DNA of 64,000 nt from Myxococcaceae bacterium (GTDB taxonomy: Bacteria; Myxococcota; Myxococcia; Myxococcales; Myxococcaceae). The DNA is taken from positions 12,554-76,553 of the forward strand of contig JANRKQ010000129.1 of NCBI GenBank assembly GCA_033763395.1, read 5' to 3'. The notes beneath the pieces were generated by a model. The model searched no databases, was not told the origin of the DNA, and saw only the letters and a list, made by a program, of their open reading frames with translations. Positions 13,987 through 35,837 of the stretch are shown in pieces. The first letter of the stretch is position 1. Each line of letters opens with the position of its first letter. The position numbers and the translations under genes were made by a program.

Positions 13987-16536
<2,550 letters not shown>

Positions 16537-16574
16537 CGAAGCGTCGACGGCCTCATGGCTTCGGGGGAACACCG

Positions 16575-17567
16575 GTGCGACTGTTCGTGGTGGTGCTGGT
16601 CCTCGCGGCGATGGGCGCAGCCGCGCAGGGCAAATCGAAGAAGGGCAAGCTGAGCGAGCCTGAAGCCGCGCCGGCCCCCGTCGCGCCCGCGCCCGTCGTG
16701 GAGCCGACGACGCCCAGTCCCGTCGCGCCGACGCCCACGCCCGACCCGCCCGTGCCTGCCGCTCCGAAGCTCACGGTCTCGGCCGACACGAAGCCGCGCC
16801 TCGCCGTCACCGCGCTCGAGGCGCAGGGCGTGACGCCGGCCCAGGCCGCGGCGGTGACGGACGCCGTGGTGGCGGCGCTGTCGGAGCGGGGCCTCTTCGA
16901 CGTCATCTCGGCCCGCGACATCGCCACCGCCCTGTCCGCCGAGCGACAGAAGCAGCTCCTGGGCGTGTGTGAGTCCGACGCCGACGCCTGCAACAGCTCG
17001 CTCGGAGAGGTCCTCTCGGCGCCGTTCATCGTCTCGGGCCAGCTGTCGCGCATCGGCACCGCCTTTCAGCTGACCCTGCAGACGTTCGACGTGGTGAAGG
17101 GCCGGCCCGCGGGGCGCGCGAACCGGGTGGCGTCGTCGCTCGAGGCGTTGCAGCAGGTCATTCCGTACGCAGCCGCCGAGGCGACGGGGTCTCCCCTGCC
17201 GCCGCCCCCGTCGCGGGTCGTGCCGATCACGCTGCTGTCGGCGGGCGCGGTGTCGTTCATCTCGGGCGCCGTCTTCGGCATCATCACGCTGACGCAGGAG
17301 CGGCTGCTCAACGACGAGCTCTGCCCCGGCGGAGTTCCTCCCGACGGGCGCTGCACCGGCACGGCGTTGAGCGAGCGCGCGTTCTACCTGACGCAGAATG
17401 ACGCCCTGGCGCGGCAGAAGTGGGTGAGCGTCGGGCTGATGGCCGCGGGCGCGGTGATGACGGTGCTGGGCGTCGTCGTGATGCCGCCGTTCGAGTCGCC
17501 CGGGCGGGTGTCGCTCAGGGTGACGCCCACGCTGGGTGGGTTCGCGGTGACGGGAGGTTTCTGGTGA
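16575..17567 (+). CDS. Membrane-anchored periplasmic alpha/beta-domain protein (paralog of 32793..33602)
   Basis: GTG at 16575 is preceded by GGGGGAA. Signal/anchor is VRLFVVVLVLAAMGAAAQG, followed by a Pro-rich linker. The domain LAVTALEAQGV...FIVSGQLSRIGTAFQLTLQTFDV is followed by GSPLPPPPSR, two hydrophobic helices and a Gly-rich tail. An alternative ATG at 16491 would overlap gyrB. Confidence 0.65.
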   Translation: MRLFVVVLVLAAMGAAAQGKSKKGKLSEPEAAPAPVAPAPVVEPTTPSPVAPTPTPDPPVPAAPKLTVSADTKPRLAVTALEAQGVTPAQAAAVTDAVVAALSERGLFDVISARDIATALSAERQKQLLGVCESDADACNSSLGEVLSAPFIVSGQLSRIGTAFQLTLQTFDVVKGRPAGRANRVASSLEALQQVIPYAAAEATGSPLPPPPSRVVPITLLSAGAVSFISGAVFGIITLTQERLLNDELCPGGVPPDGRCTGTALSERAFYLTQNDALARQKWVSVGLMAAGAVMTVLGVVVMPPFESPGRVSLRVTPTLGGFAVTGGFW

Positions 17568-19843
17568 GGGGCGTCTGGCCTGCGGTGGTGGTGGCCGTCT
17601 TGACGGGGTGCCCCGGGTTGCTCGTCGGGCCCGGCAACGACTTTCCCTGCGACTTCGCCAGGCCCCCCGGTGAGCGCGACGCCGTCTGCTCTCCCGGCGA
17701 CGTCTGCGGCGTGTCGAACCGCTGCCAGCGGTACGTCGACGAGGGGCCCCAGTTCGAAGGCGCCCCGACGTTTCCACAGTTCACCGCCGAGGTGGGCTCG
17801 GGGGTGGTCGTTCACCCGAAGGTCCTGACGGGAGCCGTCGAGGCCGTCGTCACGGTTCCTCCGAGGGCCGTCTTCGTTCGCACGGCCGACGGGACGTTTC
17901 TCGTGGAAGCCGACTCGCCCGCGCCGACGCGGTTCGACGCGGGCTTTGACGCTCGCGACGTCGCCGACGTCATCGTCTTCCCACGGGACGGGGGCTGGCG
18001 CACCTTCTGGCGCGAGCGCGACGGCGACACCTTCTTCAGAGACTCGAACTCGCCGGGTTCGCCACAGCCTCTCGGCATCAAGGCCGCGCAGTGGCGAAGG
18101 CTGGGGCCGCAGCGCATCGGCGTCATCATCGAAGGCCGACAGGGCTTTGGCGTCGTGGAGCAGGCGTCGATGGTGCCGTCCTTCCAGCGCCTGCTGGACG
18201 ACGCGGGCACTGCGCTGTTCGACGTCGTACCGGGTCCCTCGATACGCCTTGGAGAGCGCCCTGCGGTGCTGCTCGCGCGAGAGGCGCTGCTGGTCGAAGG
18301 GGCCGACGGTGGCTTCGTCTCCGTCGCCGCGGTGTCGTTGCCGCCGCCGCCGATGCTCCCCGCGGAGCGGCGATTTCCTTCGCTCAGCATCGACGAGGCG
18401 GGCGCGGTGGCCGCCGTGCTGTCGAGAACGCCGCCGCTCCTGACGACGCTCGTCACTTCGCGCACCGGGTTCGGGCTCGAGGTGGCCTCAGCGTGGCCTG
18501 ACTGTGTGCCGTGCCCGAGGGCCTTCGTCGCGACGCCTGGTCTCGACCGGGTCGGCCCCTTCGTCGACGTCCTCTGCGAGGGCAGCATTCGCCGTGTTCG
18601 CGGGGCTCTGCCGGGCGGGCGCTGCCTCGAGGAGTTGATCGAGCCACCCTTCGACGTTTCGCAGGTGAGCAATCGCGAGCCGGTGTTGGACACGACGCTG
18701 GCGACGGGCTTCGCGGTGGGCGGGCTCAGTGGGCAAGTCTGGGTCGGCCGAACCGTCGGGACCGCCCAGCCCGTCTTCATGGAGCGGGTGCCCGTCGACG
18801 TCAGCAAGGTGGGCCTCGCTGACGGAACGAGCCCCGTCTTCGCCCTCACGACAGCCGGGCTCTTCGACGGGCGCCCCGAGCGTGGCTACCTGTCCATCGC
18901 GCCCGAGGCGACGTCGCGCATCGCGGCCCTCGTCGGAGAAGGGCAGGGCTGGGTCGTCGGTGAAGGTGGCAACCTGGTGCGGGTCAGCAACGTCGGCAAG
19001 GCGTCGCCCACCGTTCGTTTCGGCCCGCGGCTCATCGATGGCCGCGGTGAGGCGGTGACGCGGCCGCTCCGGGGAGAGGCCTTCGTCGGCGTCGACGCCG
19101 GCGTCGCCTCGATGCTCATCGCCGCCGACGACTCGCTGTATTTCCTCGTGCCGCCGAGGCCGGCCGAGTCAGCGGGCCAGCTGGGCGACCTCGCGCCAGT
19201 GGCCACGCCAGAGCCGTCGTCCTTCATCCGGAGTCTGGCCATCGAGCGCACGCCCGTGGACTCCGACGGCGTGGAGCGCGTGCACGCCTACGTGGTGACG
19301 TCACGAAACGTCTTCGACGTGACGCTCGGTGGCGCGCCGCGCCGATGGACGGCGACGCCGCTCACCTTCTCGGCGGCAGGGCCGCTCGAGGTGTGGTTCG
19401 ACAACCCGCAGAGCCGGCTCGCCCGCGTCGGGTATGTCGACGGCACCGTCTTCTCGATTCCCGGTGGGTTCCAACTCACCGAGCGCCTGCCCGCGGCGAG
19501 CGACGGCTCTCCCATCGCGGTGGTGGACTATGACAACCTGGGCGGTTGGCCTGTCGCCCTCACCGAGCATGGGCTCTTCGTCGCTCGCTACGATGAGGTT
19601 CGACCCGGTCAGCTCGACAACCGCTTCCCAGATGGCGGCGTCAACAAGCCCATGTCCTGGCGGGAAGTGGTCCTGCCCGATGGCTCTCGTCCCTGGCGCC
19701 AGCAAGGCCCTCGCTTCGGCGCGAAACCGGCGAAGATCTTCGTGCTTGCCGAAGCGCCCACGTCGGCGGGCCAGACGTTCCGGCTCCTCGTCTACCTGCC
19801 GACGCAGGTCATCGAGGTGGGTCGACACGTTCGTACCCGCTAG
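17564..19843 (+). CDS. Large uncharacterised lipoprotein (paralog of the C-terminal part of 29875..32796)
   Basis: The GTG start overlaps the upstream stop as GTGA (17564-17567). Lipobox is VVAVLTGC. One Cys-rich module is present (CDFARPPGERDAVCSPGDVCGVSNRC). About 700 aa of beta-rich sequence follow with no family I recognise. Confidence 0.65.
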   Translation: MRGVWPAVVVAVLTGCPGLLVGPGNDFPCDFARPPGERDAVCSPGDVCGVSNRCQRYVDEGPQFEGAPTFPQFTAEVGSGVVVHPKVLTGAVEAVVTVPPRAVFVRTADGTFLVEADSPAPTRFDAGFDARDVADVIVFPRDGGWRTFWRERDGDTFFRDSNSPGSPQPLGIKAAQWRRLGPQRIGVIIEGRQGFGVVEQASMVPSFQRLLDDAGTALFDVVPGPSIRLGERPAVLLAREALLVEGADGGFVSVAAVSLPPPPMLPAERRFPSLSIDEAGAVAAVLSRTPPLLTTLVTSRTGFGLEVASAWPDCVPCPRAFVATPGLDRVGPFVDVLCEGSIRRVRGALPGGRCLEELIEPPFDVSQVSNREPVLDTTLATGFAVGGLSGQVWVGRTVGTAQPVFMERVPVDVSKVGLADGTSPVFALTTAGLFDGRPERGYLSIAPEATSRIAALVGEGQGWVVGEGGNLVRVSNVGKASPTVRFGPRLIDGRGEAVTRPLRGEAFVGVDAGVASMLIAADDSLYFLVPPRPAESAGQLGDLAPVATPEPSSFIRSLAIERTPVDSDGVERVHAYVVTSRNVFDVTLGGAPRRWTATPLTFSAAGPLEVWFDNPQSRLARVGYVDGTVFSIPGGFQLTERLPAASDGSPIAVVDYDNLGGWPVALTEHGLFVARYDEVRPGQLDNRFPDGGVNKPMSWREVVLPDGSRPWRQQGPRFGAKPAKIFVLAEAPTSAGQTFRLLVYLPTQVIEVGRHVRTR

Positions 19844-25178: not shown

Positions 25179-26062
25179 CGGTGCGCCTTCTTTCGCTGGG
25201 CGAGCGCGAGGTCGAACAGGTGCTCGCTGAACTGGGCCACCATCTCATGCTCCGTGACGCCCGGCCCCGAAGGCGTGACCTGAACGAACTCGCCGGTCGC
25301 TGGGCTCCTGAAGCGTATCGACTCGAAGAGACCGACCGGGTCCGTTGCCCCCGCGTAGCGGGCTGCACCGTCCGGGAGCTTCCCGAGCTGGCGATTCAAC
25401 GCGGTGTGCGCCCACTCATGAACGAGGGTCTTCGCGGTCTGCTCGATCTCGCGCGCACGCGCCTGATCGAGGTCCACCTGAAAGCGATCAACCGATCGCG
25501 GAGGTGTGAGGCCGTACCTCACGTTCTTCTTCTTGTCCGCCTCAGGCGGTGGCAGCGCCTCGACCGTTTGGGCAAAGGGTGCAGCGGTGAGTTCGACGAG
25601 GGCCTTCTCTTCGCGGACCCGTTGTCGGACCCGGCCCAGCTCATCTTTCTCGAGCGTTACGCGCCGGAATTCGATCTCGTAGGTTCCCTGAATCGCGGGC
25701 AGCAGCTCGTTGGCGAGCGCGATGGCTTCCTTCATGTTGGTGGCCTGCCGAACCGTTGCGTCTGCCGGAACGAGGGCTTGAAGCCCGCGCGCCCTGGGGA
25801 ACGGCGAGACGGTGTGGTCCGGCTGGGCGTCAGACCGGTGGCCCTTCGGCTTCGGACCAAGAGGCGGGGCCTCGGTTGGTTGCGGCTGGGTGATGGTGCC
25901 AGCGGTTGAGCGTCGAACGGGGTCTGCCACGAGCTCCCTCCGGGAGGGGGAAGCGCCCGCTGACTGCACGGCTGGTGACAGTCTCAGATTTACTCGGTTC
26001 TCTCGAGGTGAGTCCAACGCTCTCAGGGCACCACGATGGACGCCGCCTCGAAGCGCTCGCAA
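25175..26062 (-). CDS. HExxH-motif protein (putative zinc metallopeptidase), start uncertain
   Basis: Contains KTLVHEWAHTALNRQ. The farthest start, 26062, overlaps the upstream gene by 40 nt. The alternative ATG at 25735 (MKEAIALANELL) gives 186 aa. GC is lower than in the neighbours. Confidence 0.55.
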   Translation of the reverse strand: MRALRGGVHRGALRALDSPRENRVNLRLSPAVQSAGASPSRRELVADPVRRSTAGTITQPQPTEAPPLGPKPKGHRSDAQPDHTVSPFPRARGLQALVPADATVRQATNMKEAIALANELLPAIQGTYEIEFRRVTLEKDELGRVRQRVREEKALVELTAAPFAQTVEALPPPEADKKKNVRYGLTPPRSVDRFQVDLDQARAREIEQTAKTLVHEWAHTALNRQLGKLPDGAARYAGATDPVGLFESIRFRSPATGEFVQVTPSGPGVTEHEMVAQFSEHLFDLALAQRKKAHR

Positions 26063-27219
26063 CGCCGCGAGTGCACCACCACCTCGCGCGAACCTGCGGC
26101 CACCGACGCCGGCACTTCGCCCGTCCAGCTCGTGCCCGCCGCGTCGGCCCGCCCGCGCGTCAGCGCCACACCACCCACGATGACGTCGAGCACCGAGCCC
26201 AGGTGCTCGCCTTCGACGACCACCGGGGAGAGCCGATCAACCGGCGCCGTCACCGTCGTCACCCGTGGCGTGGGCAGTGACTCGTCACAGACGAAGAGGG
26301 GAAACTCCTTCCATGTCAGCGCGCCGCGGGTGTCGCGCAGCACCGTCCACAGCGTGCCGGTCCGCCGCTCGGGCACGGGGTCGAACGCCTTCTTCCCCGG
26401 GGCGGTGAAGGTGGTCTTCACCTCTTCGCGCATGGCCGTGCGCGTCTCGGAGAAGCGCCCGGCCGTCGAGTACCACGACACGAGAATGCGCTCGGTGCGG
26501 GCTTCGGGCCCGCTCGGCGTGACCGCGGTGAAGGGCTCGAATGCCGAGTCCGCCGCGTCCACGTCGAGCACCACGTCTTGCGCCGGCTTCACCATCACGC
26601 GCGCCCCGGCGGGCCAGTCGACGCCATCGACGACGAGGCGCGCCACCTGGGGGTTCTGGTTGCGCTCCGGGTCCTCCGAGATGCGCACGCGGAAGAGCGA
26701 GATGAGCGAGGCCACCTCGCGGCGCTGCACCCGGCCGAATAGGGCGGCGAGCTCCTCCATGGGCGCCGTCGGAGACACCTCTTCCGCCACCGAGATGGTG
26801 ATGAGGGTGCCGACGGTGCCGAGCGTTCGGCGTGGGTCATCGGCCGCGAGCACGTCGAAGAGGCCCCGCGGGGCCGAGTACGTGGCGGTCGCGTTGAGCC
26901 CCGCGAAGCGCACGCCCGCGGGCAGCGACATCATGTCGCCCAGTCGAGATGGGTCGTTCACCACCGCCGGGTCGGTGCAGGCCGAGCGGTTCTCGTTGAA
27001 AGGGTCGGGGTCGCACGCGATCCAGAAGGTGGTGGTGGCCTGGGTGCGGGTCGGGTCGAGCACGAGCGCCGACAGCTGGGCCGTCTCTCCGGGCGCGAGG
27101 TCGGCCGGGCTCGACGAGATGCCCAGCATGCGCAACCGGTCGACGAGCGACTCGGTGGGGAAGTCCTCGGGCGTGCAGGCCGTCGTCCAGAGCGCGAGGC
27201 CGACCAGGAGCGCGCGCAT
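26023..27219 (-). CDS. Lipoprotein of unknown function
   Basis: Only the last 398 aa of ORF 26023..28992 are coding. The ATG at 27219 shares one base with the receptor stop (TGATG). Lipobox is LALWTTAC. The C-terminal region is Ig-like and beta-rich. Confidence 0.65.
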   Translation of the reverse strand: MRALLVGLALWTTACTPEDFPTESLVDRLRMLGISSSPADLAPGETAQLSALVLDPTRTQATTTFWIACDPDPFNENRSACTDPAVVNDPSRLGDMMSLPAGVRFAGLNATATYSAPRGLFDVLAADDPRRTLGTVGTLITISVAEEVSPTAPMEELAALFGRVQRREVASLISLFRVRISEDPERNQNPQVARLVVDGVDWPAGARVMVKPAQDVVLDVDAADSAFEPFTAVTPSGPEARTERILVSWYSTAGRFSETRTAMREEVKTTFTAPGKKAFDPVPERRTGTLWTVLRDTRGALTWKEFPLFVCDESLPTPRVTTVTAPVDRLSPVVVEGEHLGSVLDVIVGGVALTRGRADAAGTSWTGEVPASVAAGSREVVVHSRRCERFEAASIVVP

Positions 27220-29861
27220 CAGTACTCTCCCCGCAGCCCCAGCACCGGGAGAATCGGCAGCCCGGTGATGAACGTCTGCGCCGAGTAGTCGTACGCGTTC
27301 TGCACCGCCTCGACGTTCGCCCGGTTGGTGACGTTCTGCACGTCGAGGTAGAGCGCCAGCATCCAGTTCTGGAAGACGAAGCGCTTGTCGATGCGGACGT
27401 CGAGCTGGAAGAAGTCGGGCAGCCGCTCGCTGAACTGCGCTCCCTGAATCGGGAAGTAGTAGTTGCCGTTGACGTCGTAGATGGCGCCGACGATGGGCGT
27501 GCGCAGCGGGCCCGAGGTGTAGCGGAGCCGCGCTCCGATGATGAAGTCGAGCGGCAGCTTGTAGCTGGCCACCACGATGAGGTTGTGGGGCTGGTCGAAC
27601 TGCGCGAGCGCCCACACCGTGCCTCCGCGAAAGTCGCGCTCGGTGCGCGACAGGCTGTAGGCGATCCACCCGAAGAAGTTCTTCGTCAGCTGGTGCCGCA
27701 ACAGAATCTCGGCGCCGAAGCTTCGGCCCCGGCCGAAGCTGCCGTACAGCACCGGTGAGCCTCCGCTCGAGAAGTCGCCCGTCGAGCTCGCGAGCGTCGC
27801 GCGCGCCTGGTTGAAGAGGTCCTTGTAGTAGAGCTGCACGTCGAGGCTGATGGCGTCGGTGAAGCGCACCTCGCCGCCCACCATGTACTGGCGCGCGCCC
27901 TCGGGCTGCAGGTCGGGGTTGCCGAACTCCTTCGTGAGCAGCCCCTGCCGGTAGTCCGGAGGCTGGTGGTAGATGCCGACGCCGCCCTTCAGCAGCACGC
28001 GGTCGTGCACCTGCCATAGCGCCGAGAGCCGGGGGTCGACCCACGCCTTGTTCATCAACGAGTTGTAGTCGCCGCGCAGGCCGCCAATGAGCTTGAGGCC
28101 CTGCACCGGCTTCCAGATGGCCTCGCCGAAGAGCGCGGGCTCGGCCATCACCACGTTCGAGCGCACCGACACGAGCCGCCGCGAACCGAACGGGTCGGGA
28201 ATGGCGCCGACGCGGGGCAGCGGCGGAGACTGAATCTCGAGGCCGTAGGGCAGCAGCTGGAAGTCGAGGCCCGTCGCGAAGGCGAGGTTCGCCTCGGGCA
28301 CGTCGATGGTGAAGGTGTTGCGCGAGATGAAGGGGAAGAGCTGGCTGCGCGCGAACAGGTCGCTCCCGGCCGAGAAGCCCACGTTGTCGAGGCCCAACGT
28401 GGTGCGGGTGCGGAAGTCGACGCGCTTCGACAGCTTCGTGTCGTACCCGAAGACGAGCCGGTTGTAGGCGATCGAGGTGCCGAAGGTGCCGCGGCCCTCG
28501 GGGTCGAGAGACGGGTTGGGCAGGGCCGCGACGAGCTGGTCCGACGAGCCGAAGAAGCTGACGAAGAAGCGGCTCTTCCCGGTGGGCGGCTTCCACTCGA
28601 GGCGCGCCTGGTAGTCCCAGTAGCGCGGCGCCACCGTGAAGCCGACCGTCTCGGTCGCCCCGGGGATGAGCGAGAGCACCGCCGGCAGGAAGGCGTCGAC
28701 GTAGCTGCGGCGCGCCGAGACCGCGACCGACCAGCTCTCGTTGATGGGCAGCTCGATGAGGCCCGAGATGTCGGCGATGTTGACGTCGAAGTAGCCGTGA
28801 ACGCCTTTCTTCGAGGGCGTTCGGGCGGTGGCGGTGACGAGGCCGGCGATGCCGCGACCGAACTCGGCGCCGTAGTTGCCCTGCTGAAAGGTGAGCGACT
28901 CGAGCAGGTTCGAGTTGTAGGTCGAGAAGAGCCCGCCGAAGTGGAAGAGCAGGGGCACCGGCGCTTCGTCGACGAAGGTGCGCGTGTCCCACGGCTTGGA
29001 GCCGCGGATGACGAGGAAGCCCAGGCCGAACGGTGAGCGCGCCACGCCCGGAAGGTTCTGCACCACGCGAAAGGCGTCGCCGTTGGTGCCGGGGATGAGG
29101 CGAATCTCTTCCTGCTTGAGGGTGACTTGTGCGACCTCTTTGCGCTCCCTGGGCGCGCGCACCACCGTCTCGAAGCCGCCGTACACCTGCTTGCGGACGT
29201 AATAGGTGGCGTCGGTGCGCTGGCCGGCCGTGACGGTCTCGGTCGTCTCGAACTTCGAGTAGCCGGGGAGCAGCACGACGACGCGCTGGGCTCCCGCGGG
29301 AACGTCCTCGATCGAGAAACGGCCGTCGTCCCCCGTCAGCGTCTCGCGCGCCCCTTCGCCCTCGCCGACGACCACCTGGGCGTTCGCGAGCGGGTCACGC
29401 GTGCCGCGCTCGAGCACCCGGCCCGCGAAGTTGACGACGCCCGTCAGGCCCGCGTCCGGCGCCACCGGCACCTCGACGACCTGCTGGCGGAAGAAGAACT
29501 GGTAGCTGAACTGAATGCGCACCGGCGTGGGGACGAAGTCGACCTCTGCCGGGGTGAAGCGGAACCGGCGAATGGCGGCGAGCGCCTCGCGGTCGAAGCC
29601 CTCACCCGCGCTCTGCACCACCTTCGCGTCGGTGACGGTGCCGTCGACGCCGAGGTCGATCTCCATCACCACGGTGCCGCCCACGCCGGCGTCGAGCAGC
29701 TCTGGCGGGAAGGTGGCCTCGACCCGCTCGACCAGGGTGGGCGCCTTCGTGAGCACGCCCGCGCCTCCATCGCTCTGGGCGAACGCGGAGACGGACGAGA
29801 GGACGACGAGGAGGCACGCGACGCGCACGACGGGCCGGATGTTTAACACCGGCTCGCCCAC
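27219..29861 (-). CDS. TonB-dependent receptor with N-terminal TonB_C-like and carboxypeptidase-regulatory-like domains
   Basis: 880 aa. Signal peptide VACLLVVLSSVSAFAQ. The TonB C-terminal-like segment is VEATFPPELLDAGVGGTVVMEIDLGVDGTVTDAKVVQSAGEGFDREALAAIRRFRFTPA. It is followed by GRVLERGTRDPLANAQVVV...TGDDGRFSIEDVPAG, a plug (IPGTNGDAFRVVQNLPGV, IRGSKPWDT), a beta-barrel, and a terminal ...GLRGEY. Confidence 0.85.
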   Translation of the reverse strand: MGEPVLNIRPVVRVACLLVVLSSVSAFAQSDGGAGVLTKAPTLVERVEATFPPELLDAGVGGTVVMEIDLGVDGTVTDAKVVQSAGEGFDREALAAIRRFRFTPAEVDFVPTPVRIQFSYQFFFRQQVVEVPVAPDAGLTGVVNFAGRVLERGTRDPLANAQVVVGEGEGARETLTGDDGRFSIEDVPAGAQRVVVLLPGYSKFETTETVTAGQRTDATYYVRKQVYGGFETVVRAPRERKEVAQVTLKQEEIRLIPGTNGDAFRVVQNLPGVARSPFGLGFLVIRGSKPWDTRTFVDEAPVPLLFHFGGLFSTYNSNLLESLTFQQGNYGAEFGRGIAGLVTATARTPSKKGVHGYFDVNIADISGLIELPINESWSVAVSARRSYVDAFLPAVLSLIPGATETVGFTVAPRYWDYQARLEWKPPTGKSRFFVSFFGSSDQLVAALPNPSLDPEGRGTFGTSIAYNRLVFGYDTKLSKRVDFRTRTTLGLDNVGFSAGSDLFARSQLFPFISRNTFTIDVPEANLAFATGLDFQLLPYGLEIQSPPLPRVGAIPDPFGSRRLVSVRSNVVMAEPALFGEAIWKPVQGLKLIGGLRGDYNSLMNKAWVDPRLSALWQVHDRVLLKGGVGIYHQPPDYRQGLLTKEFGNPDLQPEGARQYMVGGEVRFTDAISLDVQLYYKDLFNQARATLASSTGDFSSGGSPVLYGSFGRGRSFGAEILLRHQLTKNFFGWIAYSLSRTERDFRGGTVWALAQFDQPHNLIVVASYKLPLDFIIGARLRYTSGPLRTPIVGAIYDVNGNYYFPIQGAQFSERLPDFFQLDVRIDKRFVFQNWMLALYLDVQNVTNRANVEAVQNAYDYSAQTFITGLPILPVLGLRGEY

Positions 29862-29874
29862 CTCGCAGGCCCGA

Positions 29875-32796
29875 CTACTGGCAGGGGCCGATGGTGGTGC
29901 GGAAGACCGTCCCGTTCGCCGTGAAGAGGTAGACGTCGGCGCCGACCGCGTGCAGCGCCCCGTCCGTGAAGTCCGTCAGTGGCGGCACGCCCGCGAGCGA
30001 CAGACGTTCCCACGTGCCCTCGCCGCCATTCGGTTGGCCCACCAGCCGGAAGAGGCCGGCCGGCGACAGCCCGAGCTCGTGCCCACACGCGACGGCGAAG
30101 TCCACGGCCACCGCTTCGGGGAAGGGACCGGCCAGACGAATGCGGCTCGGCAGCCCGTACACGGCTCCGGTCGTCGTCCCGAGGCGCGCACGGTCCGCTG
30201 AGAACCACGTCTCGAGGGGGAGCACGCCGGCGGGCAGGGTGAGGTCGGTGAGCCGGAACCGCGTGGGTGAAGACGCCGTCACCCGCACCACGCTCTGGCT
30301 CGTCACGCCATAGCCCTCGAGCCAGACGCCGGCATCGGGGTTGGTTCGCGTCGGGAAGCTCAGCGATGCGAACGGCGCGGTGCTGGTCGCCCGCAGCTCG
30401 AGGGGAACGAACGTCACCGTTCCGGCCAGCGCGTCGTCGACGTCGGCCGCGAAGAGGTTCGGCCCGCTCGAGAGGACCGCGACGGTGCGCCCGGTGACGG
30501 CCCTCGCGCGGGCCACGCTCACCGGGCGTGCAGGCGCCGACGACAGCACGGCGAAGGTCGACGCCGAGGCGAGTGTCGGGCCCTGGGCCAACGTCGTCAC
30601 GCCAGTGGTGGTGAGCACCCACGAGGGGTCGTTCGTCGCGACGGCGAGCAGGTCGACGCCGGCGGCCGTCAGCAGCCCGACCTGTGGCGCGGGGACGCCC
30701 AGCACTCCGTCGCCGACGGCGATGACGTTGCGTGGGTCGGCGCCGACGGCCGCCAGTCCGACTGGCGCCCGGTCGAAGAGGACAGAGGCCGCCGACTGCG
30801 CGCTCGCGCCGGTCCACAGCTCGCCTCGGGGCCCCGCCGCGACGAAGCGGCCGGGCGCGGTCTGGTCAGGCAGGGTCAGCGCGCCGGCGGACGAGAAGAG
30901 GCCACTGCGGCCGACCAGCGGTCGCCTGTCGCACAGGCCCGAGGTGAAGGGCCGCCTCGAGATGCGGAAGAACCCCGACGAGCCCCCGTCGGCGACGCTG
31001 CACCGCACCTCGAGCTCGGGCGTGGTGGCGCCGGTGATCGGCGTGAGCGAGAGGAGCTGACCGCCGGGGCATGCTTCACAGGGGCCGAGCTCGACGGAGT
31101 AGGGAATCGCGTCGCCTGGCGTGCAGGGCTGGTCGAGGATCGAGGTGCAGTACGAGTCGTAGGGCCCGCCCCCTCGCGCGAGCATCGGCGTCAGGTTCCA
31201 CAAAGCCACCTGCTCCCGGCCGCCATCGCGCGGCGCGGCCGTGATGGCGAGGTGCCGCGGCCCCGCCGACTCGAGGTGCGTCACCTTGAGCCCGGTCGGC
31301 GCGCAGACGTCGTTCCCGAAGAGCGGAGCGTGCACCATCTCGAGGGGCCAGCTGTTGTCCCGCATCAGCTGCTCGACCCACACGCCGGCTTCGTCGAGCG
31401 CGAATACGCACTCGAGCCCACCGTCACGGGTGATGACGTCGGCCATGTCGATGATGCGGTTCCCCGCTCTGTTGCGAATGCGGCTCGGAAAGGCGAACGG
31501 CGCTGCGGCGCGCGGCCCGTCGAAGAGTACGTAGTCGTTGGCCGGGTCGGGCCCGAAGGCGATGGTGGTGGGAAAGAGCCCCGGGTCGGCGGTGCCGTGC
31601 CGCAGCTCGGTGATCGGGGCGTTCACCGAGTACGAGTTGTCGGCCGAGCCCACCCGGAGCCACGCAACCCCTCCATCGTCGAGCAGGGTCGCCGCCTCGA
31701 GTCCGCCGTCGGGCCTCCCGAGGTACACCCGATCAGCGGCGACCTCGACGAAGCGGTCGAAAGGAAACCCCTGGTAGTCGACCGACCTGGGGCTCTGCAC
31801 CAGCAGCGGGCCGCCGAGCGCAGCGCCCAGCTCCACGCTCCGAACGACGCCTCCGCTGGTGATGGTCGTCGCGCGGAGCTGCCCGCCACGCTCGAAGGCG
31901 TACCAGGGCGGAGCGGCGGGCGATGGGAGCGGAGAAATGGCGAGGCGGCCGAGGGGGAGCTGTTCGAGCGGGCTGATCAGCAGGAAGGCCCCGGCGTCGA
32001 GCGGGCCAGCCGGAATCAGCGCGTCGCCAGACGGGTCGGCGCACAGGCCTCCGAGGTCGCAGCGCCAGCCGCCGACGCAGTCGACGTCGGAGAGGCACGC
32101 GTGGGCGCGCGGCGCGGTCGGGTCATGACATTCACGCTGAACGCGGTTCATCGTGAGCCCGCAGCGGAACCCGCCGGCGCAGTCGGCGTCGACGAGGCAG
32201 GGCAGCTCCGAGGGCACCCGGGTGTCGCGGCAGACGCGGTCGACCCGGTTGTCGGCGAGCCGGCACGTCCACCCGCCGACGCAGTCGGAGTCGGCACGGC
32301 ACGGCCACGCCATCGGCTGCGACGGATCGTGACACGCCCGGCCACCCTCCACCGCCAGGCCGCACGACCACCCCGCGACGCAGTCGTCGCTCGTGTCGCA
32401 CGGCCAGTCGGTCGGCGCCGCCGGGTCGTGACAACGTCGGGCCCGCTGGCGGTCGAGGCCGCACCTCCACCCAGCCGAGCAGTCGGCGCTGGTCGCGCAG
32501 CGGTAGTCGGCACCCACCGAGGGATCGTGGCACTCGCGGTCGGCGCCGTTGGCCGCGAGCCCACAGAGGAACCCGGCCTCGCAGTCATCGGCGCTCTCGC
32601 AGCGCCAGGCGGTCGCGGTATCGCCCACGTCGTGGCAGAAGCCCTCGAGGCCGCAGCGGCTGGACCCCGGGCACTGGGCGCTGCCGACGGTGCGGTCCTT
32701 CGCCGGGTCGCACGTGTACCGTCCCGGCGGTACCTCGGGAGCAGGGCACCCGGCGAGCAGGAGCGCGAGGGCGAAGACGAAGCGCGCGCGCGTCAT
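29875..32796 (-). CDS. Large lipoprotein with seven Cys-rich repeats plus uncharacterised C-terminal domain (paralog of 17564..19843)
   Basis: The ATG at 32796 overlaps the upstream stop as ATGA. Lipobox is ALALLLAGC. Seven units fit the pattern C-x(4,5)-DC-x2-G[WF]xCGL-x(6,7)-R-x-CHDP. The C-terminal ~700 aa are alignable by eye with 17564..19843. Confidence 0.7.
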   Translation of the reverse strand: MTRARFVFALALLLAGCPAPEVPPGRYTCDPAKDRTVGSAQCPGSSRCGLEGFCHDVGDTATAWRCESADDCEAGFLCGLAANGADRECHDPSVGADYRCATSADCSAGWRCGLDRQRARRCHDPAAPTDWPCDTSDDCVAGWSCGLAVEGGRACHDPSQPMAWPCRADSDCVGGWTCRLADNRVDRVCRDTRVPSELPCLVDADCAGGFRCGLTMNRVQRECHDPTAPRAHACLSDVDCVGGWRCDLGGLCADPSGDALIPAGPLDAGAFLLISPLEQLPLGRLAISPLPSPAAPPWYAFERGGQLRATTITSGGVVRSVELGAALGGPLLVQSPRSVDYQGFPFDRFVEVAADRVYLGRPDGGLEAATLLDDGGVAWLRVGSADNSYSVNAPITELRHGTADPGLFPTTIAFGPDPANDYVLFDGPRAAAPFAFPSRIRNRAGNRIIDMADVITRDGGLECVFALDEAGVWVEQLMRDNSWPLEMVHAPLFGNDVCAPTGLKVTHLESAGPRHLAITAAPRDGGREQVALWNLTPMLARGGGPYDSYCTSILDQPCTPGDAIPYSVELGPCEACPGGQLLSLTPITGATTPELEVRCSVADGGSSGFFRISRRPFTSGLCDRRPLVGRSGLFSSAGALTLPDQTAPGRFVAAGPRGELWTGASAQSAASVLFDRAPVGLAAVGADPRNVIAVGDGVLGVPAPQVGLLTAAGVDLLAVATNDPSWVLTTTGVTTLAQGPTLASASTFAVLSSAPARPVSVARARAVTGRTVAVLSSGPNLFAADVDDALAGTVTFVPLELRATSTAPFASLSFPTRTNPDAGVWLEGYGVTSQSVVRVTASSPTRFRLTDLTLPAGVLPLETWFSADRARLGTTTGAVYGLPSRIRLAGPFPEAVAVDFAVACGHELGLSPAGLFRLVGQPNGGEGTWERLSLAGVPPLTDFTDGALHAVGADVYLFTANGTVFRTTIGPCQ
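32029..32712 (-). repeat. Coding array of about 7 Cys-rich ~33-aa modules
   Basis: Examples: WRCESADDCEAGFLCGLAANGADRECHDPS / YRCATSADCSAGWRCGLDRQRARRCHDPA / WPCDTSDDCVAGWSCGLAVEGGRACHDPS / WPCRADSDCVGGWTCRLADNRVDRVCRDTR / LPCLVDADCAGGFRCGLTMNRVQRECHDPT. Coordinates are approximate, derived from aa positions. Confidence 0.75.
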
Positions 32797-33602
32797 GGCA
32801 TGAACCCCACGATGGCGAAGCCCTGTGACGTGGGCACGAGCGACGCCCGGACGCCCGTCTGCGGCGCCTCCGGCGGCATCACCACGAGGCCAAGCGTCAC
32901 CAGCGCCGCGCCAGCGACGAGCCCACACAGCGACAGCGTACGCTGGAGGGCGGTTCGCTCGAGCTGGTCGCGGTAGCTGTCAGCAGAGCGGAGCACCACC
33001 GAGCGGTTCATGTCGTCGCTGCGCAGCTCTCCCCGGAGCGCCGCTTCTTCATTGAGCGCGAGGAGCCCGAAGACGGCTCCGGTGATGACCGCCGCGCCAC
33101 CGGCGACGATGAGGGTGATGGGGAGCGCCCTCGACGGCGGCGGGGGCAGCGGCGTGCCGCACGCTTCGGCGACCGCCCACGGCAGCAGGCCACGCAGGCT
33201 CTCGAAGTCCCTGGCCACCTTCGTGCTGCGCGCGGTGACCCGCCCCTTGACCGTGTCGGACACCTGCAGGTTCAACTGGAAGATGCCCTCGAGGCGGGTC
33301 AGCGAGCCGCTCATGACGTAGGGCGCGCCGAGGGCCCCTGCGAGCTCGGCGGTGCAGGAGGCGGCCTCGTCGCCGCAGCCGAGGAGCTGCCGCTGCCGCT
33401 CGACGCCCAGGAGGGTGGCGATCTCAGCCGACGAGATGGGCTCGAAGAAGCCACGCGCGCCGACCTCGGCCGCCAGGCTCTCCGTCATGGCTGCCGCGAG
33501 CGCGGGGTCGACGTCGCCGGCGCCCTGGAGCGAGAGAATGGCGAGGCGCGCCTTCTGTGGAGTAGCCGCGGTTGCCACCGAGACGAGCAGCTCGAGAACC
33601 AT
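32793..33602 (-). CDS. Membrane-anchored periplasmic alpha/beta-domain protein (paralog of 16575..17567)
   Basis: 269 aa. LAILSLQGAGDVDPALAAAMTESLAAEV...YVMSGSLTRLEGIFQLNLQVSD is followed by GTPLPPPPSR, two hydrophobic helices and the tail SQGFAIVGFMP. Identity to 16575..17567 is roughly 40% by eye. Confidence 0.65.
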   Translation of the reverse strand: MVLELLVSVATAATPQKARLAILSLQGAGDVDPALAAAMTESLAAEVGARGFFEPISSAEIATLLGVERQRQLLGCGDEAASCTAELAGALGAPYVMSGSLTRLEGIFQLNLQVSDTVKGRVTARSTKVARDFESLRGLLPWAVAEACGTPLPPPPSRALPITLIVAGGAAVITGAVFGLLALNEEAALRGELRSDDMNRSVVLRSADSYRDQLERTALQRTLSLCGLVAGAALVTLGLVVMPPEAPQTGVRASLVPTSQGFAIVGFMP

Positions 33603-33685
33603 GGCAGACTTGTAGCGCTGATCGAGTCAGCCCCGCAGCGCAACGCAGACGAAGCCCGCCAGCGGCAGCGCGCGCCTGACGGTCG

Positions 33686-34231
33686 TCACTTGTTCGTGGC
33701 CGGCGCCTCGGTCGACGCGCCCGCGGTCGCGGCCGACGCCTCGGCCGGCTTCTTCTGCCACCCGAGGTCCTGGGCGACGTCGGCGATGATGGCGGGGACG
33801 ATGGCCTCGAGCAGTTCGTTCGCCTCGGGCCCGCTGGCGTGAATGAACCAGCTGCCCCGCAGCCCGTTGCCCGGGATCTTCGTCACCAGCAGCGACGCGC
33901 GCATCTGCTCGCGCGCCTCGGTGAGCACCAGCTTCACGCGCAGGCCGGTCGTCTGCTTCGCCTTCACCGTCGCGGCCGAGGCGTCGTCGGCCTCACCGGG
34001 CGGCGCGTAGTCCAGCACGAACCCGTCGAGCGCGGCCTTCATCAACGCGTCCGCCTGCGCGAGCAGCGGCTTGTACGCGTCGGCCTCGGTCTCGGTCGGC
34101 AGCACGCCGAGGTATGGCACCGCCGGCGCCGCGGGCGCGGGCTGCGAAACGGGCTTGTCCTTCTCGCCCTTCTTCGGGCCCGCCCAGGTCACCGACGAGA
34201 CGAGCACCATCACGAGGCAGAGCGGCTTCAT
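33686..34231 (-). CDS. Secreted hypothetical protein
   Basis: ATG at 34231 gives signal peptide MKPLCLVMVLVSSVTWAGP. 181 aa. No motif recognised. Confidence 0.5.
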   Translation of the reverse strand: MKPLCLVMVLVSSVTWAGPKKGEKDKPVSQPAPAAPAVPYLGVLPTETEADAYKPLLAQADALMKAALDGFVLDYAPPGEADDASAATVKAKQTTGLRVKLVLTEAREQMRASLLVTKIPGNGLRGSWFIHASGPEANELLEAIVPAIIADVAQDLGWQKKPAEASAATAGASTEAPATNK

Positions 34232-34278
34232 GAGGCGAAAGGCTCGCCCAGGCCGTCTGCCGTTCTCAATGAAAGAAT

Positions 34279-35694
34279 TCACCTACAGTAGAACCGACGT
34301 CGACCAGCGGCGAAGGCGACGAGCGTCAGCACCCACGCGTCGAGCGCGCCTGCGCCCGCACTGCACCCCGGCCCGGCTGCGCTGGCCTCGGCGACGTCGA
34401 TGCGTGCCTCGACGGTGGCCACGGCGCGGTTGCCGGCGGCGTCGAAGGCGTGCACCTCGAGTTGGGTCGGGCCGGGGGGCTGTCCGCTCGCGTCGAACCG
34501 CAAGCGCCACGGCGGCTCGAGGCGCGTGTCGACGAGTGCGCCGTTGACGAGCAGCTCCACCCGCGTAGCGTCGACGGCCTGGACCTCGACGGCCACCTCA
34601 CCCGCGACGAGCTGCCCGGGCGTCGGCGAGACGATGGAGAGGGCTGGCGGCGTGCGGTCGATGGAGCCCGGCTCGACGATGCGCACCGTCGCGGCGCCCG
34701 AGCGGCCAAGCGCCACCGCCTGTACCACGTGAGGGCCTCCCAGCCGTGGCCCCGCGACGAAGCGCCCTCCACTCGAGACGGTGCCGCCTCCTGTCGTGGA
34801 CCACGCCATGGGCGTTGGCAGGTCCATCGCGCGGCCGAACTGGTCAGCGAAGCGCGCCGAGAACACGACGCTCCCACCGGGCTCGACGTCGGCGGTGGCG
34901 GGCGTGACGGCGATGGTGGTGGCCGTCGCGTTCACTGGCACGTCGACGACGGCGCTCGCGGCCTGGCCCGAGGCGTCGGTGATGACGACGCGCAGCTGGT
35001 GGGCGCCGGCCGCCGAGAACGTCGCGACCGTCTGTTTGGCGGCGTTCGAGCCGTTCGGCGAGAAGGTGACGGCGCCGCCCCGGGTGACGCTCCAGTCGTA
35101 GCGCAGACCGGCCTCGGGCTGGTCGTCGGCGCCCAGCACCTCGACGCGGGTCGCTGCGGTGGTGACGGTCGCAGGGGTGGCCCGGGGTGGCGTCGCGATG
35201 CGGGGCGCGGTGCTGCCGCCCGTCACGTTCACGGTGAGTGTCGTCAGCGCGGCGCGGTCGCCCGACGTTCCACCATTGCCGTTGCACGAGTTGCCGGCCC
35301 CGAAGAGCCTGAGGGCGCCGGAGAAGGGCGGCGCCTTGAGCCTGAACGCGAAGCTGGCGCGCCCGGCCGAGAAGGCCTTCGGCGTGGCCTGGTGGAGCTC
35401 GCCGCTGAAGGCCACCGTGTCTCCAGTGACGCCGAGGAGCTCGGCCTCGGGCACGTCGACGGCGACGTTCAGGCCCGCGCGCACCGCGGCGCCTCCGCTG
35501 ATGGTGAGGCGGTAGTCGCCCACCTGTCCAGCCGAGAGCGTCGTCGGCCCGGTGACGGTCACCATCGGCGCGGCGCCGCCCGAGTGACACCCATTGCAGG
35601 TGGACGCCGAGGTGCCGGCGTAGCCCACGACGCCGAGCTGGTTGGCCAACACCGGCGCGGCCACGACGAGGCCCAGGACACAGAGCAGACGCAT
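34279..35694 (-). CDS. Secreted CxxCH-motif, Ig-like repeat protein with MYXO-CTERM-type sorting tail
   Basis: ATG at 35694. Signal peptide MRLLCVLGLVVAAPVLA. CNGCHSG lies near the N-terminus. Several beta-rich Ig-like segments follow. The C-terminus GCSAGAGALDAWVLTLVAFAAGRRR fits the Cys / hydrophobic helix / Arg-cluster MYXO-CTERM pattern. Confidence 0.65.
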   Translation of the reverse strand: MRLLCVLGLVVAAPVLANQLGVVGYAGTSASTCNGCHSGGAAPMVTVTGPTTLSAGQVGDYRLTISGGAAVRAGLNVAVDVPEAELLGVTGDTVAFSGELHQATPKAFSAGRASFAFRLKAPPFSGALRLFGAGNSCNGNGGTSGDRAALTTLTVNVTGGSTAPRIATPPRATPATVTTAATRVEVLGADDQPEAGLRYDWSVTRGGAVTFSPNGSNAAKQTVATFSAAGAHQLRVVITDASGQAASAVVDVPVNATATTIAVTPATADVEPGGSVVFSARFADQFGRAMDLPTPMAWSTTGGGTVSSGGRFVAGPRLGGPHVVQAVALGRSGAATVRIVEPGSIDRTPPALSIVSPTPGQLVAGEVAVEVQAVDATRVELLVNGALVDTRLEPPWRLRFDASGQPPGPTQLEVHAFDAAGNRAVATVEARIDVAEASAAGPGCSAGAGALDAWVLTLVAFAAGRRRFYCR

Positions 35695-35837
35695 GCTGGG
35701 CGACCCAGAAGCAGGGCGCGTGCCGCCGTCAGCGCGCTCCCATCGGCGTAGGAACACGAGCGCCGCGGGAGGCCGGTGAGGACTCGAGTGGTCAGCCACC
35801 TGCGGCGGTGAAGCTCCACGTGGAGCCTCGTTGACGC

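What the first reader, a model, noticed from the sequence alone, without database searches (positions are those of the whole stretch)
29875..33602. Cassette copy 2 heads a long same-strand envelope operon and carries a Cys-rich expansion absent from copy 1
The second copy lies convergent to copy 1, with about 10 kb between their 3' ends. It is followed after only 13 nt by the TonB_C-fused receptor gene (start 29861). Its large lipoprotein has about 230 extra residues of Cys-rich repeats inserted directly after the lipobox, where copy 1 has a single such module. This suggests a modular N-terminal stalk or ligand-binding region that expands and contracts between paralogs while the C-terminal domain is kept.
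Basis: partly seen in the sequence, partly recalled or inferred. Interest (0 to 1): 0.6.

Follow-up and report, generated by a model that had tools for sequence, protein, structure and literature searches.

The report
Variable cysteine stalk on propeller lipoprotein
A second, diverged copy of an uncharacterised two-gene envelope module from uncultured myxobacteria carries seven small disulfide-type modules between its lipid anchor and a double beta-propeller; the module number varies from 0 to 11 across the family, and this copy was recently inserted in front of a TonB-dependent receptor gene, so the two are probably not functionally linked.

Summary
A 269-aa two-helix membrane protein (33602-32793, minus strand) overlaps by ATGA a 973-aa lipoprotein (32796-29875). 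That lipoprotein has seven tandem 33-34-aa four-cysteine modules, followed by an all-beta body predicted as a tandem beta-propeller. Copy 1 (16491-19843) is a true paralog with only the first module.

A homolog survey supports the idea of a modular stalk:
- Ten copy-2 orthologs have 7, 8 or 9 modules.
- In four orthologs checked (all 9-module) the central modules are still a 102-bp DNA tandem array.
- All 50 full-length copy-1-type proteins scored have exactly one module.
- 132 more distant relatives have 0-11 modules, most often 3.

The stalk is the best conserved part of the protein. The first propeller is the most variable part. This fits a spacer better than a ligand-binding array.

The operon reading is not supported. 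None of 12 related receptor loci carries the cassette. None of 9 ortholog loci with downstream sequence carries a receptor gene. In the nearest relative (receptor 96% identical) the 3.83-kb cassette is missing and 38 nt stand in its place. Copy 2 is therefore a recent insertion into an existing operon. Co-transcription with the receptor is plausible but incidental and untested. Function is only inferred.

The parts
32793..33602 (-). Small partner gene of copy 2 (269 aa). It has an N-terminal alpha/beta domain with two invariant Cys, a PPPP linker, two predicted transmembrane helices and a short tail.
   Evidence: Translation. It is 43% identical to the copy-1 partner. The Pfam match to PF11684 is below threshold (26 bits, cutoff 30.1). 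A homolog lies directly upstream of the lipoprotein gene in every ortholog locus that has upstream sequence. Alignment.
32793..32796 (-). ATGA overlap between the stop codon of the small partner and the start codon of the lipoprotein, implying translational coupling.
   Evidence: Coordinates. The same 4-nt overlap is called in ortholog loci L001-L008 and L065.
29875..32796 (-). Large lipoprotein gene of copy 2 (973 aa, P0006).
   Evidence: Translation, with lipobox LLAGC17. It has no Pfam or NCBIfam family. Orthologs are 49-53% identical. AF2 model has mean pLDDT 71.
32023..32718 (-). Cys-rich stalk: seven tandem four-Cys modules, residues 27-258.
   Evidence: Module table. The stalk-only AF2 model has pLDDT 84.5, with one beta-hairpin plus a short turn per module. 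There is no significant PDB fold match and no PDB sequence match. No DNA-level tandem repeat is detected in the window.
32272..32280 (-). Approximate position (residues ~173-175, inside module 5) where orthologs carry one extra module (P0064) or two (P0007-P0010).
   Evidence: There is a 34-aa gap against P0064 and a 68-column gap against P0007-P0010. A contig from the independent run X3 spans this point without a gap.
29878..32022 (-). All-beta body (residues 259-973), predicted to be a tandem beta-propeller with four invariant Cys (573, 576, 599, 622).
   Evidence: Secondary structure. The best Foldseek PDB hits are DDB1, the Utp21 tandem WD domain, AIP1 and the BT4663 periplasmic double propeller (E 1e-11 to 1e-7). 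Invariant columns.
29853..33683 (-). Segment of 3.83 kb (the cassette plus ~81 nt upstream and ~22 nt downstream) that has no counterpart in the three nearest relatives. It is a lineage-specific insertion.
   Evidence: blastn against L052, L053 and L054. Junction alignments. By eye, flank homology reaches to about 33660 and 29870.
29850..29874 (-). Spacer of 25 nt between the lipoprotein stop codon and the conserved receptor start. It contains GAGGTGG, a possible ribosome-binding site.
   Evidence: Sequence. Conserved GTG. No terminator-like or promoter-like site was found here.
27219..29849 (-). TonB-dependent receptor gene with an N-terminal TonB_C domain and a CarboxypepD_reg domain. The conserved start is GTG 29849.
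   Evidence: Pfam: TonB_C 4.7e-14, CarboxypepD_reg 1.3e-11, Plug 1.1e-4 (23.2 bits, just under the 23.9-bit cut-off), barrel 9.8e-22. Twelve orthologs are 63-96% identical.
26023..27222 (-). Lipoprotein of 399 aa that is the conserved downstream partner of the receptor (4-nt overlap).
   Evidence: ORF. It lies downstream of the receptor in 12 of 12 related loci. It has no family match.
33686..34282 (-). Upstream gene of 198 aa. In relatives it lies directly in front of the receptor gene.
   Evidence: tblastn 68-71% identity in L052 and L053, at 7333-7875, just before the receptor gene at 8001. blastn.
16491..17567 (+). Small partner gene of copy 1. The start is uncertain, and similarity to copy 2 begins near residue 95.
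   Evidence: Conserved synteny gyrB, small partner, lipoprotein.
17564..19843 (+). Lipoprotein gene of copy 1 (759 aa; GTGA overlap with its partner), with a single Cys module.
   Evidence: All 50 full-length copy-1-type proteins scored have one module.

Best explanation
Copy 2 is a genuine, old paralog of a conserved two-gene envelope module. The module is a small membrane protein with two predicted transmembrane helices, translationally coupled to a large lipoprotein.

Architecture of the lipoprotein: lipid anchor, then a stalk of tandem 33-34-aa four-cysteine (probably two-disulfide) hairpin mini-domains, then a tandem beta-propeller head.

How the stalk changes length: it gains or loses whole modules, most likely by unequal recombination or slippage between 102-bp units. 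This gives 1 module in the copy-1 clade, 7-10 in the copy-2 clade and 0-11 in the wider family.

Inferred function: the stalk is a rigid, conserved spacer. It sets how far the fast-evolving propeller head stands from the membrane that holds the lipid anchor. The head is the part that binds something, and the small partner is its membrane-side contact.

Position: copy 2 sits in front of the TonB-dependent receptor gene because a 3.83-kb cassette was recently inserted precisely into an intergenic spacer of a pre-existing operon. In the nearest relatives that operon reads: 1013-aa gene, 198-aa gene, receptor, lipoprotein. The cassette is probably now transcribed with the receptor, but the link is incidental.

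Shown here: the architecture, the paralogy, the module-number variation, the DNA tandem arrays in orthologs, the pair conservation and the insertion.

Inferred only: the disulfides, the rigidity, the cell compartment, the binding role of the head, the contact with the partner, and co-transcription.
For: - Paralogy.
- Coupling: ATGA overlap here and 4-nt overlaps in orthologs.
- Pair conservation: the partner lies directly upstream in all copy-2 loci and in every copy-1 locus that has upstream sequence (about 30).
- Module counts.
- Whole-module gaps: 34 aa against P0064 and 68 aa against P0007-P0010.
- 102-bp tandem arrays at 74-84% identity in four orthologs, and nearly identical neighbouring modules in P0008.
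- A tree of stalk-less bodies places the window protein with the 8-module P0064 (support 0.99) inside a 7-10-module clade. Successive sister groups have 5/4, 6/3 and 5/4 modules. The copy-1 clade is fixed at one.
- Fold: the stalk modules are predicted at pLDDT 75-90, each a hairpin plus turn. The body matches tandem propellers.
- Conservation: stalk 57-73% identity against 35-48% for the first propeller.
- Insertion.
- Not an artefact.
Against: - No experiment or RNA data exist for any member. All known members come from metagenome-assembled genomes.
- The compartment (periplasmic or surface-exposed) is unknown. The residue after the lipid-modified Cys varies among orthologs (P, K, Q, R), so sorting cannot be read from sequence.
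- The topology of the small partner is ambiguous. It has a very short N-terminal hydrophobic segment, and conserved Cys pairs lie both in the N-domain and, in copy 1, in the loop between the helices.
- The full-length AF2 model is only moderate (pLDDT 71, pTM 0.54).
- Loss of the cassette in three relatives, rather than gain here, cannot be formally excluded. It is less parsimonious, because all 12 receptor loci lack the cassette.
- No target-site duplication or mobility gene marks the insertion.
Confidence: 0.7

Rival explanations
1. Functional operon. The cassette and the TonB_C-fused receptor work together, for example with the lipoprotein acting as a surface substrate-capture protein that feeds the receptor, in the manner of SusD/SusC or HasA/HasR pairs.
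For: The genes share a strand and are separated by a 25-nt spacer with no terminator-like site. Both products are envelope proteins.
Against: None of 12 related receptor loci carries the cassette, while all 12 keep the downstream 399-aa lipoprotein. None of 9 copy-2 ortholog loci with downstream sequence carries a receptor gene; 8 have a convergent gene and 1 has an ATP-grasp gene. The nearest relative shows an empty site. Copy 1 sits next to gyrB with no receptor gene nearby.
Confidence: 0.08
2. Periplasm-spanning regulator. The lipoprotein is anchored in the inner leaflet of the outer membrane, and the stalk lets the propeller reach the periplasmic domain of the small inner-membrane partner. 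This resembles LpoA and LpoB reaching PBP1A and PBP1B. Stalk length would be tuned to the distance to be spanned.
For: The pair is obligate and translationally coupled. The partner has a TolB_N/DUF3280-like domain at weak scores, followed by membrane helices. An earlier follow-up on copy 1 named LpoB/LpoA as the closest known system.
Against: Module number ranges from 0 to 11 in the family, and from 1 to 7 in one genome. That is hard to reconcile with one fixed periplasmic width. The head evolves very fast while the partner is conserved: 58% against 92% identity for copy 1 in the nearest relative. This is unusual for a housekeeping regulator. There is no sequence similarity to LpoA or LpoB.
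Confidence: 0.25
3. The Cys-rich region is an array of protease inhibitors or ligand-binding knottins, not a spacer.
For: The Pfam match to CarbpepA_inh reaches 25.3 bits against a cutoff of 25. Single modules superpose on squash trypsin inhibitors at 0.7-1.0 A over 24-26 residues.
Against: The Pfam score is the sum of four partial stretches covering 16 of 46 positions. The modules have four Cys, not the six of a cystine knot. The Foldseek E-values are 2-4, which is not significant. The modules lack hypervariable loops and are the most conserved segment of the protein.
Confidence: 0.07
4. The Cys-rich region is an assembly artefact or an unrelated fused gene.
For: Tandem repeats are prone to collapse in short-read assemblies. 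This copy has fewer modules than most orthologs.
Against: It is one continuous frame with high third-position GC. At least 14 relatives share the same architecture. Module 1 is homologous to the single module of copy 1. Contigs from two runs, one from a different sample, match across the junctions and the indel point. The modules are too diverged at DNA level to collapse.
Confidence: 0.03

Closest known systems
TraA of Myxococcus xanthus: a polymorphic surface receptor with a PA14 head, Cys-rich tandem repeats (TIGR04201) and a MYXO-CTERM tag (PMC3325183, PMC6372800)
   Same: It is a myxobacterial envelope protein whose variable recognition head is carried on tandem Cys-rich repeats. Those repeats were proposed to form a rigid stalk (PMC3325183, read). 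It is encoded with a partner gene (traB). The head is polymorphic and the stalk conserved.
   Different: The order is reversed here: lipid anchor at the N-terminus, then stalk, then head, whereas TraA has the head first and a C-terminal sorting tag. The head here is a tandem beta-propeller, not PA14. The repeat does not reach the TIGR04201 threshold (14.1 bits against 25). The partner here is a two-helix membrane protein, not an OmpA-domain protein. No role in outer-membrane exchange is known or implied.
LpoA and LpoB of Escherichia coli: outer-membrane lipoproteins that reach across the periplasm to inner-membrane PBPs (from general knowledge)
   Same: A lipoprotein with a long N-terminal spacer that places a globular domain at a distance from its anchor. 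It works with an inner-membrane partner.
   Different: The LpoB spacer is disordered rather than disulfide-rich, and is not made of repeats that vary in number. There is no sequence similarity. The head here evolves fast.
Knottin, Dickkopf and EB-type small disulfide-rich modules (PF02977, PF04706, PF01683), and follistatin-like arrays of such modules
   Same: Each module is a short hairpin held by disulfides with a D-C-x2-G-[WF]-x-C core. The sequence and fold matches are marginal.
   Different: There are four Cys per module, not six or more. All matches are at or below threshold. No significant fold match was found (best E 0.047). The context is bacterial.
Periplasmic tandem beta-propeller sensor domain of Bacteroides hybrid two-component system BT4663 (PDB 4a2l), and eukaryotic tandem propellers such as DDB1 and Utp21
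   Same: The predicted fold of the body is two consecutive beta-propellers.
   Different: Sequence identity is only about 10% and TM-scores about 0.2 for the whole chain. There is no kinase or signalling domain, and the protein is lipid-anchored.

Membership tests
Bacterial lipoprotein (Lgt/LspA substrate) | A short N-terminal signal peptide ending in a lipobox [LVI][ASTVI][GAS]C | tested here: met
   The N-terminus reads MTRARFVFALALLLAGC17. Equivalent lipoboxes occur in most orthologs and in copy 1; the script pattern matched 35 of 47 sequences. Lipid modification itself was not tested.
TIGR04201 Myxo_Cys_RPT (TraA-type Cys-rich repeat) | HMM score at or above the curated cutoff of 25 bits | tested here: not met
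   Score 14.1 bits, E 0.038, three short stretches of about 13 residues. The full protein gave no NCBIfam hit at E 0.1.
PF02977 CarbpepA_inh (cystine-knot inhibitor) | A six-Cys, three-disulfide knot with a full-length match to the 46-position model | tested here: not met
   The summed score is 25.3 bits against a cutoff of 25, but it comes from four partial stretches and the best covers model positions 11-26 only. There are four Cys per module.
PF04706 Dickkopf_N / PF01683 EB module / PF23416 DUF7107 | HMM score at or above the gathering threshold | tested here: not met
   Scores are 17.7, 19.6 and 16.6 bits against cutoffs of 25, 24.3 and 24.6.
Tandem beta-propeller fold | Two consecutive propellers of four-stranded blades | tested here: met
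   The AF2 body is all-beta. In Foldseek, 140 PDB matches have E<=0.001, and the top matches are all multi-propeller proteins with probability 1.00. Model confidence is moderate (pLDDT 71), and the blade count was not determined.
PF11684 (DUF3280), for the small partner | HMM score at or above 30.1 bits | tested here: not met
   Copy 2 scores 26 bits, E 1.3e-5. Copy 1 scores 13.7 bits. The resemblance is below threshold.
Conserved operon of the cassette with the TonB-dependent receptor | Adjacency kept in related genomes | tested here: not met
   Adjacency is seen in 0 of 12 receptor loci and 0 of 9 copy-2 loci with downstream sequence. The nearest relative has an empty site.
TonB-dependent receptor with fused TonB_C domain (the neighbouring gene) | Plug and 22-strand barrel domains, plus an N-terminal TonB_C domain | tested here: met
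   PF00593 9.8e-22; PF07715 1.1e-4 (23.2 bits, marginally below the 23.9-bit cut-off); PF03544 4.7e-14 at residues 49-122; PF13620 1.3e-11. The N-terminus resembles the myxochelin receptor MxcH over 92 residues only.
LpoA/LpoB-type PBP activators | Sequence or fold similarity to LpoA or LpoB, and a PBP partner | tested here: not met
   No Pfam or NCBIfam match. The partner is not a PBP. The functional analogy was not tested.

The most novel reading that the evidence does not exclude
These pairs may define an undescribed family of surface-displayed recognition proteins in uncultured Myxococcaceae and Archangiaceae. A fast-diversifying double-propeller head would be held on a disulfide-module stalk whose length is adjusted by adding or removing modules. 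Different paralogs in one cell (1 and 7 modules here) would then present their heads at different heights above the membrane, for cell-cell, prey or phage-related recognition. The small membrane partner would relay or anchor the complex.
Probability: 0.25. Interest if true: 0.7.

Novelty: new variant of a known kind. Interest (0 to 1): 0.45.

Why it matters
If the stalk is a rigid spacer of adjustable length, the family offers a natural series of 0 to 11 modules on one head. That series could be used to ask how far an envelope protein must reach to work. The family is large: 412 clusters at 50% identity. It has no domain annotation, and every member whose source was traced here is metagenomic and, where named, assigned to uncultured myxobacteria. 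Its head evolves much faster than its neighbours, which is the pattern seen in recognition proteins such as TraA.

The result also carries a practical caution. A 13-25-nt same-strand junction looked like an operon link, but comparison with a 93%-identical relative shows it to be a recent insertion.

Tried and rejected
- Pfam and NCBIfam on the whole lipoprotein gave no family.
- A PDB sequence search with the stalk gave nothing, even at E 10.
- A PDB fold search with the stalk gave nothing significant.
- Tandem Repeats Finder on the window stalk gave no array, so repeat turnover is not recent in this copy.
- The promoter and terminator scan of 25500-34600 found nothing at either junction, and the counts did not exceed shuffled controls.
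- The search for sequencing runs found only DNA metagenomes, so operon continuity could not be tested.
- The search for related loci with P0006 alone found no close relative among species-representative genomes.
- The 196-aa gene that lies divergently upstream of the orthologs is not related to the window's 198-aa upstream gene.
- The 804-aa gene in L001 is not a copy-1 homolog.
- The literature hits for 'DUF2380' concern PF09533, the SitA6 toxin family. That family is unrelated to PF11684 despite the shared label.
- Upstream regions of the small partner share only a TA[GC]AA[CG]-like hexamer 7-9 nt before the ATG. No convincing -35 element was found.
- The genome search and the fetch from genomes were shut for the whole session. 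Further paralogs in the window's own genome could therefore not be counted.

Full report
**Setting.** The window has about 70% GC. Its relatives are all metagenome-assembled genomes labelled Myxococcaceae, Archangiaceae or Myxococcales. gyrB lies at 14023-16536.

**The observation.**
- On the minus strand, a 269-aa ORF (33602-32793) ends in a TGA that overlaps the ATG of a 973-aa ORF (32796-29875).
- The longer 1017-aa reading from GTG 32928 only adds a non-signal leader. The ATG at 32796 gives MTRARFVFALALLLAGC, a standard lipoprotein signal with the lipobox Cys at residue 17.
- Residues 28-258 hold 28 cysteines in seven modules of four. In Cys-to-Cys position differences, module 1 is 13/6/6, modules 2-6 are 6/6/10-11 followed by CHDP, and module 7 is 6/6/6.
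- Copy 1 is at 16491-17567 (small protein) and 17564-19843 (759-aa lipoprotein, GTGA overlap).
- The small proteins are 43% identical (E 2e-57). The large ones are 26% identical over the last ~300 residues and also match at the first Cys module.
- Copy 1 has only that first module, with the same 13/6/6 spacing.
- The excess in copy 2 is therefore six modules, about 198 aa. The whole proteins differ by 214 aa.
- The two 3' ends are 10.0 kb apart and convergent. No third copy is present in the window.

**Not an artefact.** Two short contigs built from public reads support the sequence. One, from run X1, covers 29705-29910 without a difference, so the lipoprotein-receptor junction is real. The other comes from a different sample (X3). 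It covers 31966-32392 with one difference and no gap, and this span includes the point where orthologs have extra modules. The modules in the window are too diverged to register as a DNA tandem repeat, so assembly collapse is unlikely.

**What the proteins are.**
- Neither large protein matches any Pfam or NCBIfam model.
- An AlphaFold2 model built on a 47-sequence alignment has mean pLDDT 71. It shows one beta-hairpin and a short turn per module (pLDDT 75-85), followed by an all-beta body.
- Foldseek places the body with multi-propeller proteins: DDB1, the Utp21 tandem WD domain, AIP1 and the periplasmic double propeller of BT4663. E-values are 1e-11 to 1e-7 at about 10% identity.
- A model of the stalk alone reaches pLDDT 84.5 but has no significant PDB match. 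The best is follistatin at E 0.047. Single modules superpose on squash knottins at about 1 A, but with E 2-4.
- The stalk has only marginal sequence matches: CarbpepA_inh 25.3 bits from four partial stretches, and EB, Dickkopf_N and DUF7107 below threshold. The TraA-type repeat TIGR04201 scores 14.1 bits against a cutoff of 25.
- The module is therefore an unclassified four-Cys mini-domain with a D-C-x2-G-[WF]-x-C core.
- The small partner has an N-terminal domain with two invariant Cys and a sub-threshold PF11684 match (26 bits against 30.1). It continues with a PPPP linker, two hydrophobic helices and a short tail.

**Homolog survey: the stalk.**
- Ten copy-2 ortholog loci were recovered.
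- Their module counts are: 9 in P0007-P0010, L013, L014 and L015; 8 in L009 and P0064; 7 in L012 and in the window.
- Against P0007-P0010 the window lacks exactly 68 residues, two modules.
- Against P0064, its nearest relative in the body-only tree with a 73%-identical stalk, it lacks exactly 34 residues, one module.
- In four orthologs checked (L001-L004, all 9-module) the central modules still form a 102-bp tandem array at 74-84% DNA identity. In P0008, modules 6 and 7 are almost identical. This is the footprint of unequal recombination or slippage between units.
- All 50 full-length copy-1-type proteins scored (of 51 found) have exactly one module.
- A profile search of 1.84 billion representative proteins found 412 relatives at E<=0.001. 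Among the 132 long ones in the best 150, module counts run from 0 to 11, most often 3.
- A maximum-likelihood tree was built from the bodies with the stalks removed. It groups the window protein with P0064 (support 0.99) inside a clade of 7-10 modules. Successive sister groups have 5/4, 6/3 and 5/4 modules. The copy-1 clade is fixed at one.
- Module number therefore follows phylogeny, with copy 2 at the expanded end and copy 1 at the minimal end.

**Stalk or binding site?** Region-by-region identity shows the stalk to be the best conserved part. In copy 2 it is 57-73% identical, and module 1 of copy 1 is 73-84%. The first propeller is the least conserved, at 35-48% in both paralogs. In the nearest relative genome, gyrB is 99% identical, the copy-1 partner 92% and the downstream gene 92%. 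The copy-1 lipoprotein is only 58% identical, and part of it has no blastn match at all. This fits a conserved scaffold carrying a fast-evolving head, not a variable ligand-binding array.

**The pair.** A homolog of the small protein lies directly upstream of the lipoprotein gene in all copy-2 loci and in every copy-1 locus that has upstream sequence (about 30 loci). Where genes were called, the two overlap by 4 nt. Seven genomes carry both paralog pairs on different contigs, so the duplication is old.

**The operon claim.**
- The downstream gene is a TonB-dependent receptor with an N-terminal TonB_C domain and a CarboxypepD_reg domain.
- Its first in-frame GTG (29861) is not conserved. The GTG at 29849, within CCGGTGTTAA, is conserved in the three nearest relatives. 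The spacer is therefore 25 nt, and it carries GAGGTGG ahead of the start.
- No terminator-like or promoter-like site lies there, so read-through is plausible.
- The adjacency is not conserved. Of the nine copy-2 ortholog loci with downstream sequence, eight have a convergent gene and one has an ATP-grasp gene. None has a receptor gene within up to 8 kb.
- Conversely, twelve related receptor loci all keep the 399-aa downstream lipoprotein, and none has the cassette.
- In the nearest relative (L052; receptor 96% identical in protein and 93% in DNA) the order is 1013-aa gene, 198-aa gene, receptor, lipoprotein. Window positions 33683-29853 have no counterpart there, and 38 nt stand in their place.
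- The junction alignments place the insertion between the stop codon of the 198-aa gene and the receptor start. It begins some 60-80 nt before the small partner's ATG and ends within a few bases of the lipoprotein stop.
- No duplication of the target, and no transposase or integrase gene, is visible.
- Because all twelve receptor loci lack the cassette, gain in the window's lineage is the simpler reading. The origin could be another place in the same genome, since relatives keep copy 2 elsewhere.
- The cassette also does not head the same-strand run. Three minus-strand genes lie upstream.
- The same comparison shows two further indels in this operon: 35837-34295, and 26022-24394. The region is a hot spot of gene gain and loss.

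**Function.** Nothing is known experimentally, and every member found is annotated as hypothetical. The most likely mechanism has four elements:
- a disulfide-stabilised stalk that sets the distance between the lipid anchor and a propeller head that does the binding;
- a translationally coupled membrane partner;
- stalk length set by whole-module gain and loss;
- a head that is diversifying.

Two settings remain open. One is display on the cell surface, with TraA as the closest analogue. Its Cys-rich repeats were proposed to be a rigid stalk for a polymorphic head (PMC3325183). The other is a periplasm-spanning arrangement like LpoA and LpoB. The wide range of stalk lengths and the fast-evolving head favour the first, but only weakly.

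**Earlier notes of this scan.**
- They agree on the paired cassette and the propeller fold (e1-3060888) and on the seven modules (e1-3060890).
- The notes on the receptor operon (e1-3060892), the MYXO-CTERM gene (e1-3060899) and the low-GC HExxH gene (e1-3060893) are complemented here: the last two are also indels relative to the nearest relative.

**Limits.**
- The genome search and the fetch from genomes were shut, so paralogs elsewhere in this genome were not counted.
- No RNA data exist.
- Disulfides, topology and localisation are inferred only.

Noticed in passing
window 17564-19843 (copy-1 lipoprotein), especially 17892-18528: Compared with the nearest relative (L016), the copy-1 lipoprotein is only 58% identical. 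Flanking gyrB is 99%, the small partner 92% and the downstream gene 92%. blastn finds no match at all for 17892-18528. The first propeller is a local hypervariable region between near-identical genomes.
   Followed up: partly
window 34295-35837: The gene for a MYXO-CTERM-tailed protein is absent from the syntenic locus of the nearest relative L052, where 45 nt stand in its place. It is a second indel in the same operon.
   Followed up: partly
window 24394-26022: The lower-GC stretch with the HExxH-type gene and its neighbour has no counterpart in L052 or L054 but is present in L053 (55-56% protein identity). Its presence is patchy among close relatives.
   Followed up: partly
window 33603-33625 and ortholog loci L001, L003, L009, L013, L014: A TA[GC]AA[CG]-like hexamer lies 7-9 nt upstream of the small partner's ATG. 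In the window it reads TACAAG, and in five of nine ortholog loci it reads TAGAAC or TAGAAG (L004 has a looser TACGCT). It may be the -10 element of a promoter that gives a nearly leaderless mRNA and travelled with the cassette.
   Followed up: partly
window 29849-29861: The receptor gene's first in-frame GTG (29861) is not conserved in relatives. The GTG at 29849 is conserved, so annotations that start at 29861 are probably four codons too long.
   Followed up: yes
window 16491-17567 and 32793-33602 (small partners): Copy-1-type partners have a conserved Cys pair (CPGG...RC) in the loop between the two hydrophobic helices, and copy-2-type partners lack it. Both types keep a Cys pair in the N-terminal domain. 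The membrane topology therefore cannot be settled from sequence.
   Followed up: no
Pfam PF11684: The Pfam entry named DUF3280 carries the description 'DUF2380'. The real DUF2380 (PF09533) is the SitA6 lipoprotein toxin family of Myxococcus (PMC12077181). The two should not be confused when reading annotations of the small partner.
   Followed up: yes
loci L001, L004, L012, L015 (upstream of copy-2 orthologs): Ser/Thr protein kinase genes lie within a few kb upstream of the cassette in four ortholog loci. Such kinases are very common in myxobacteria, so this may be chance.
   Followed up: no
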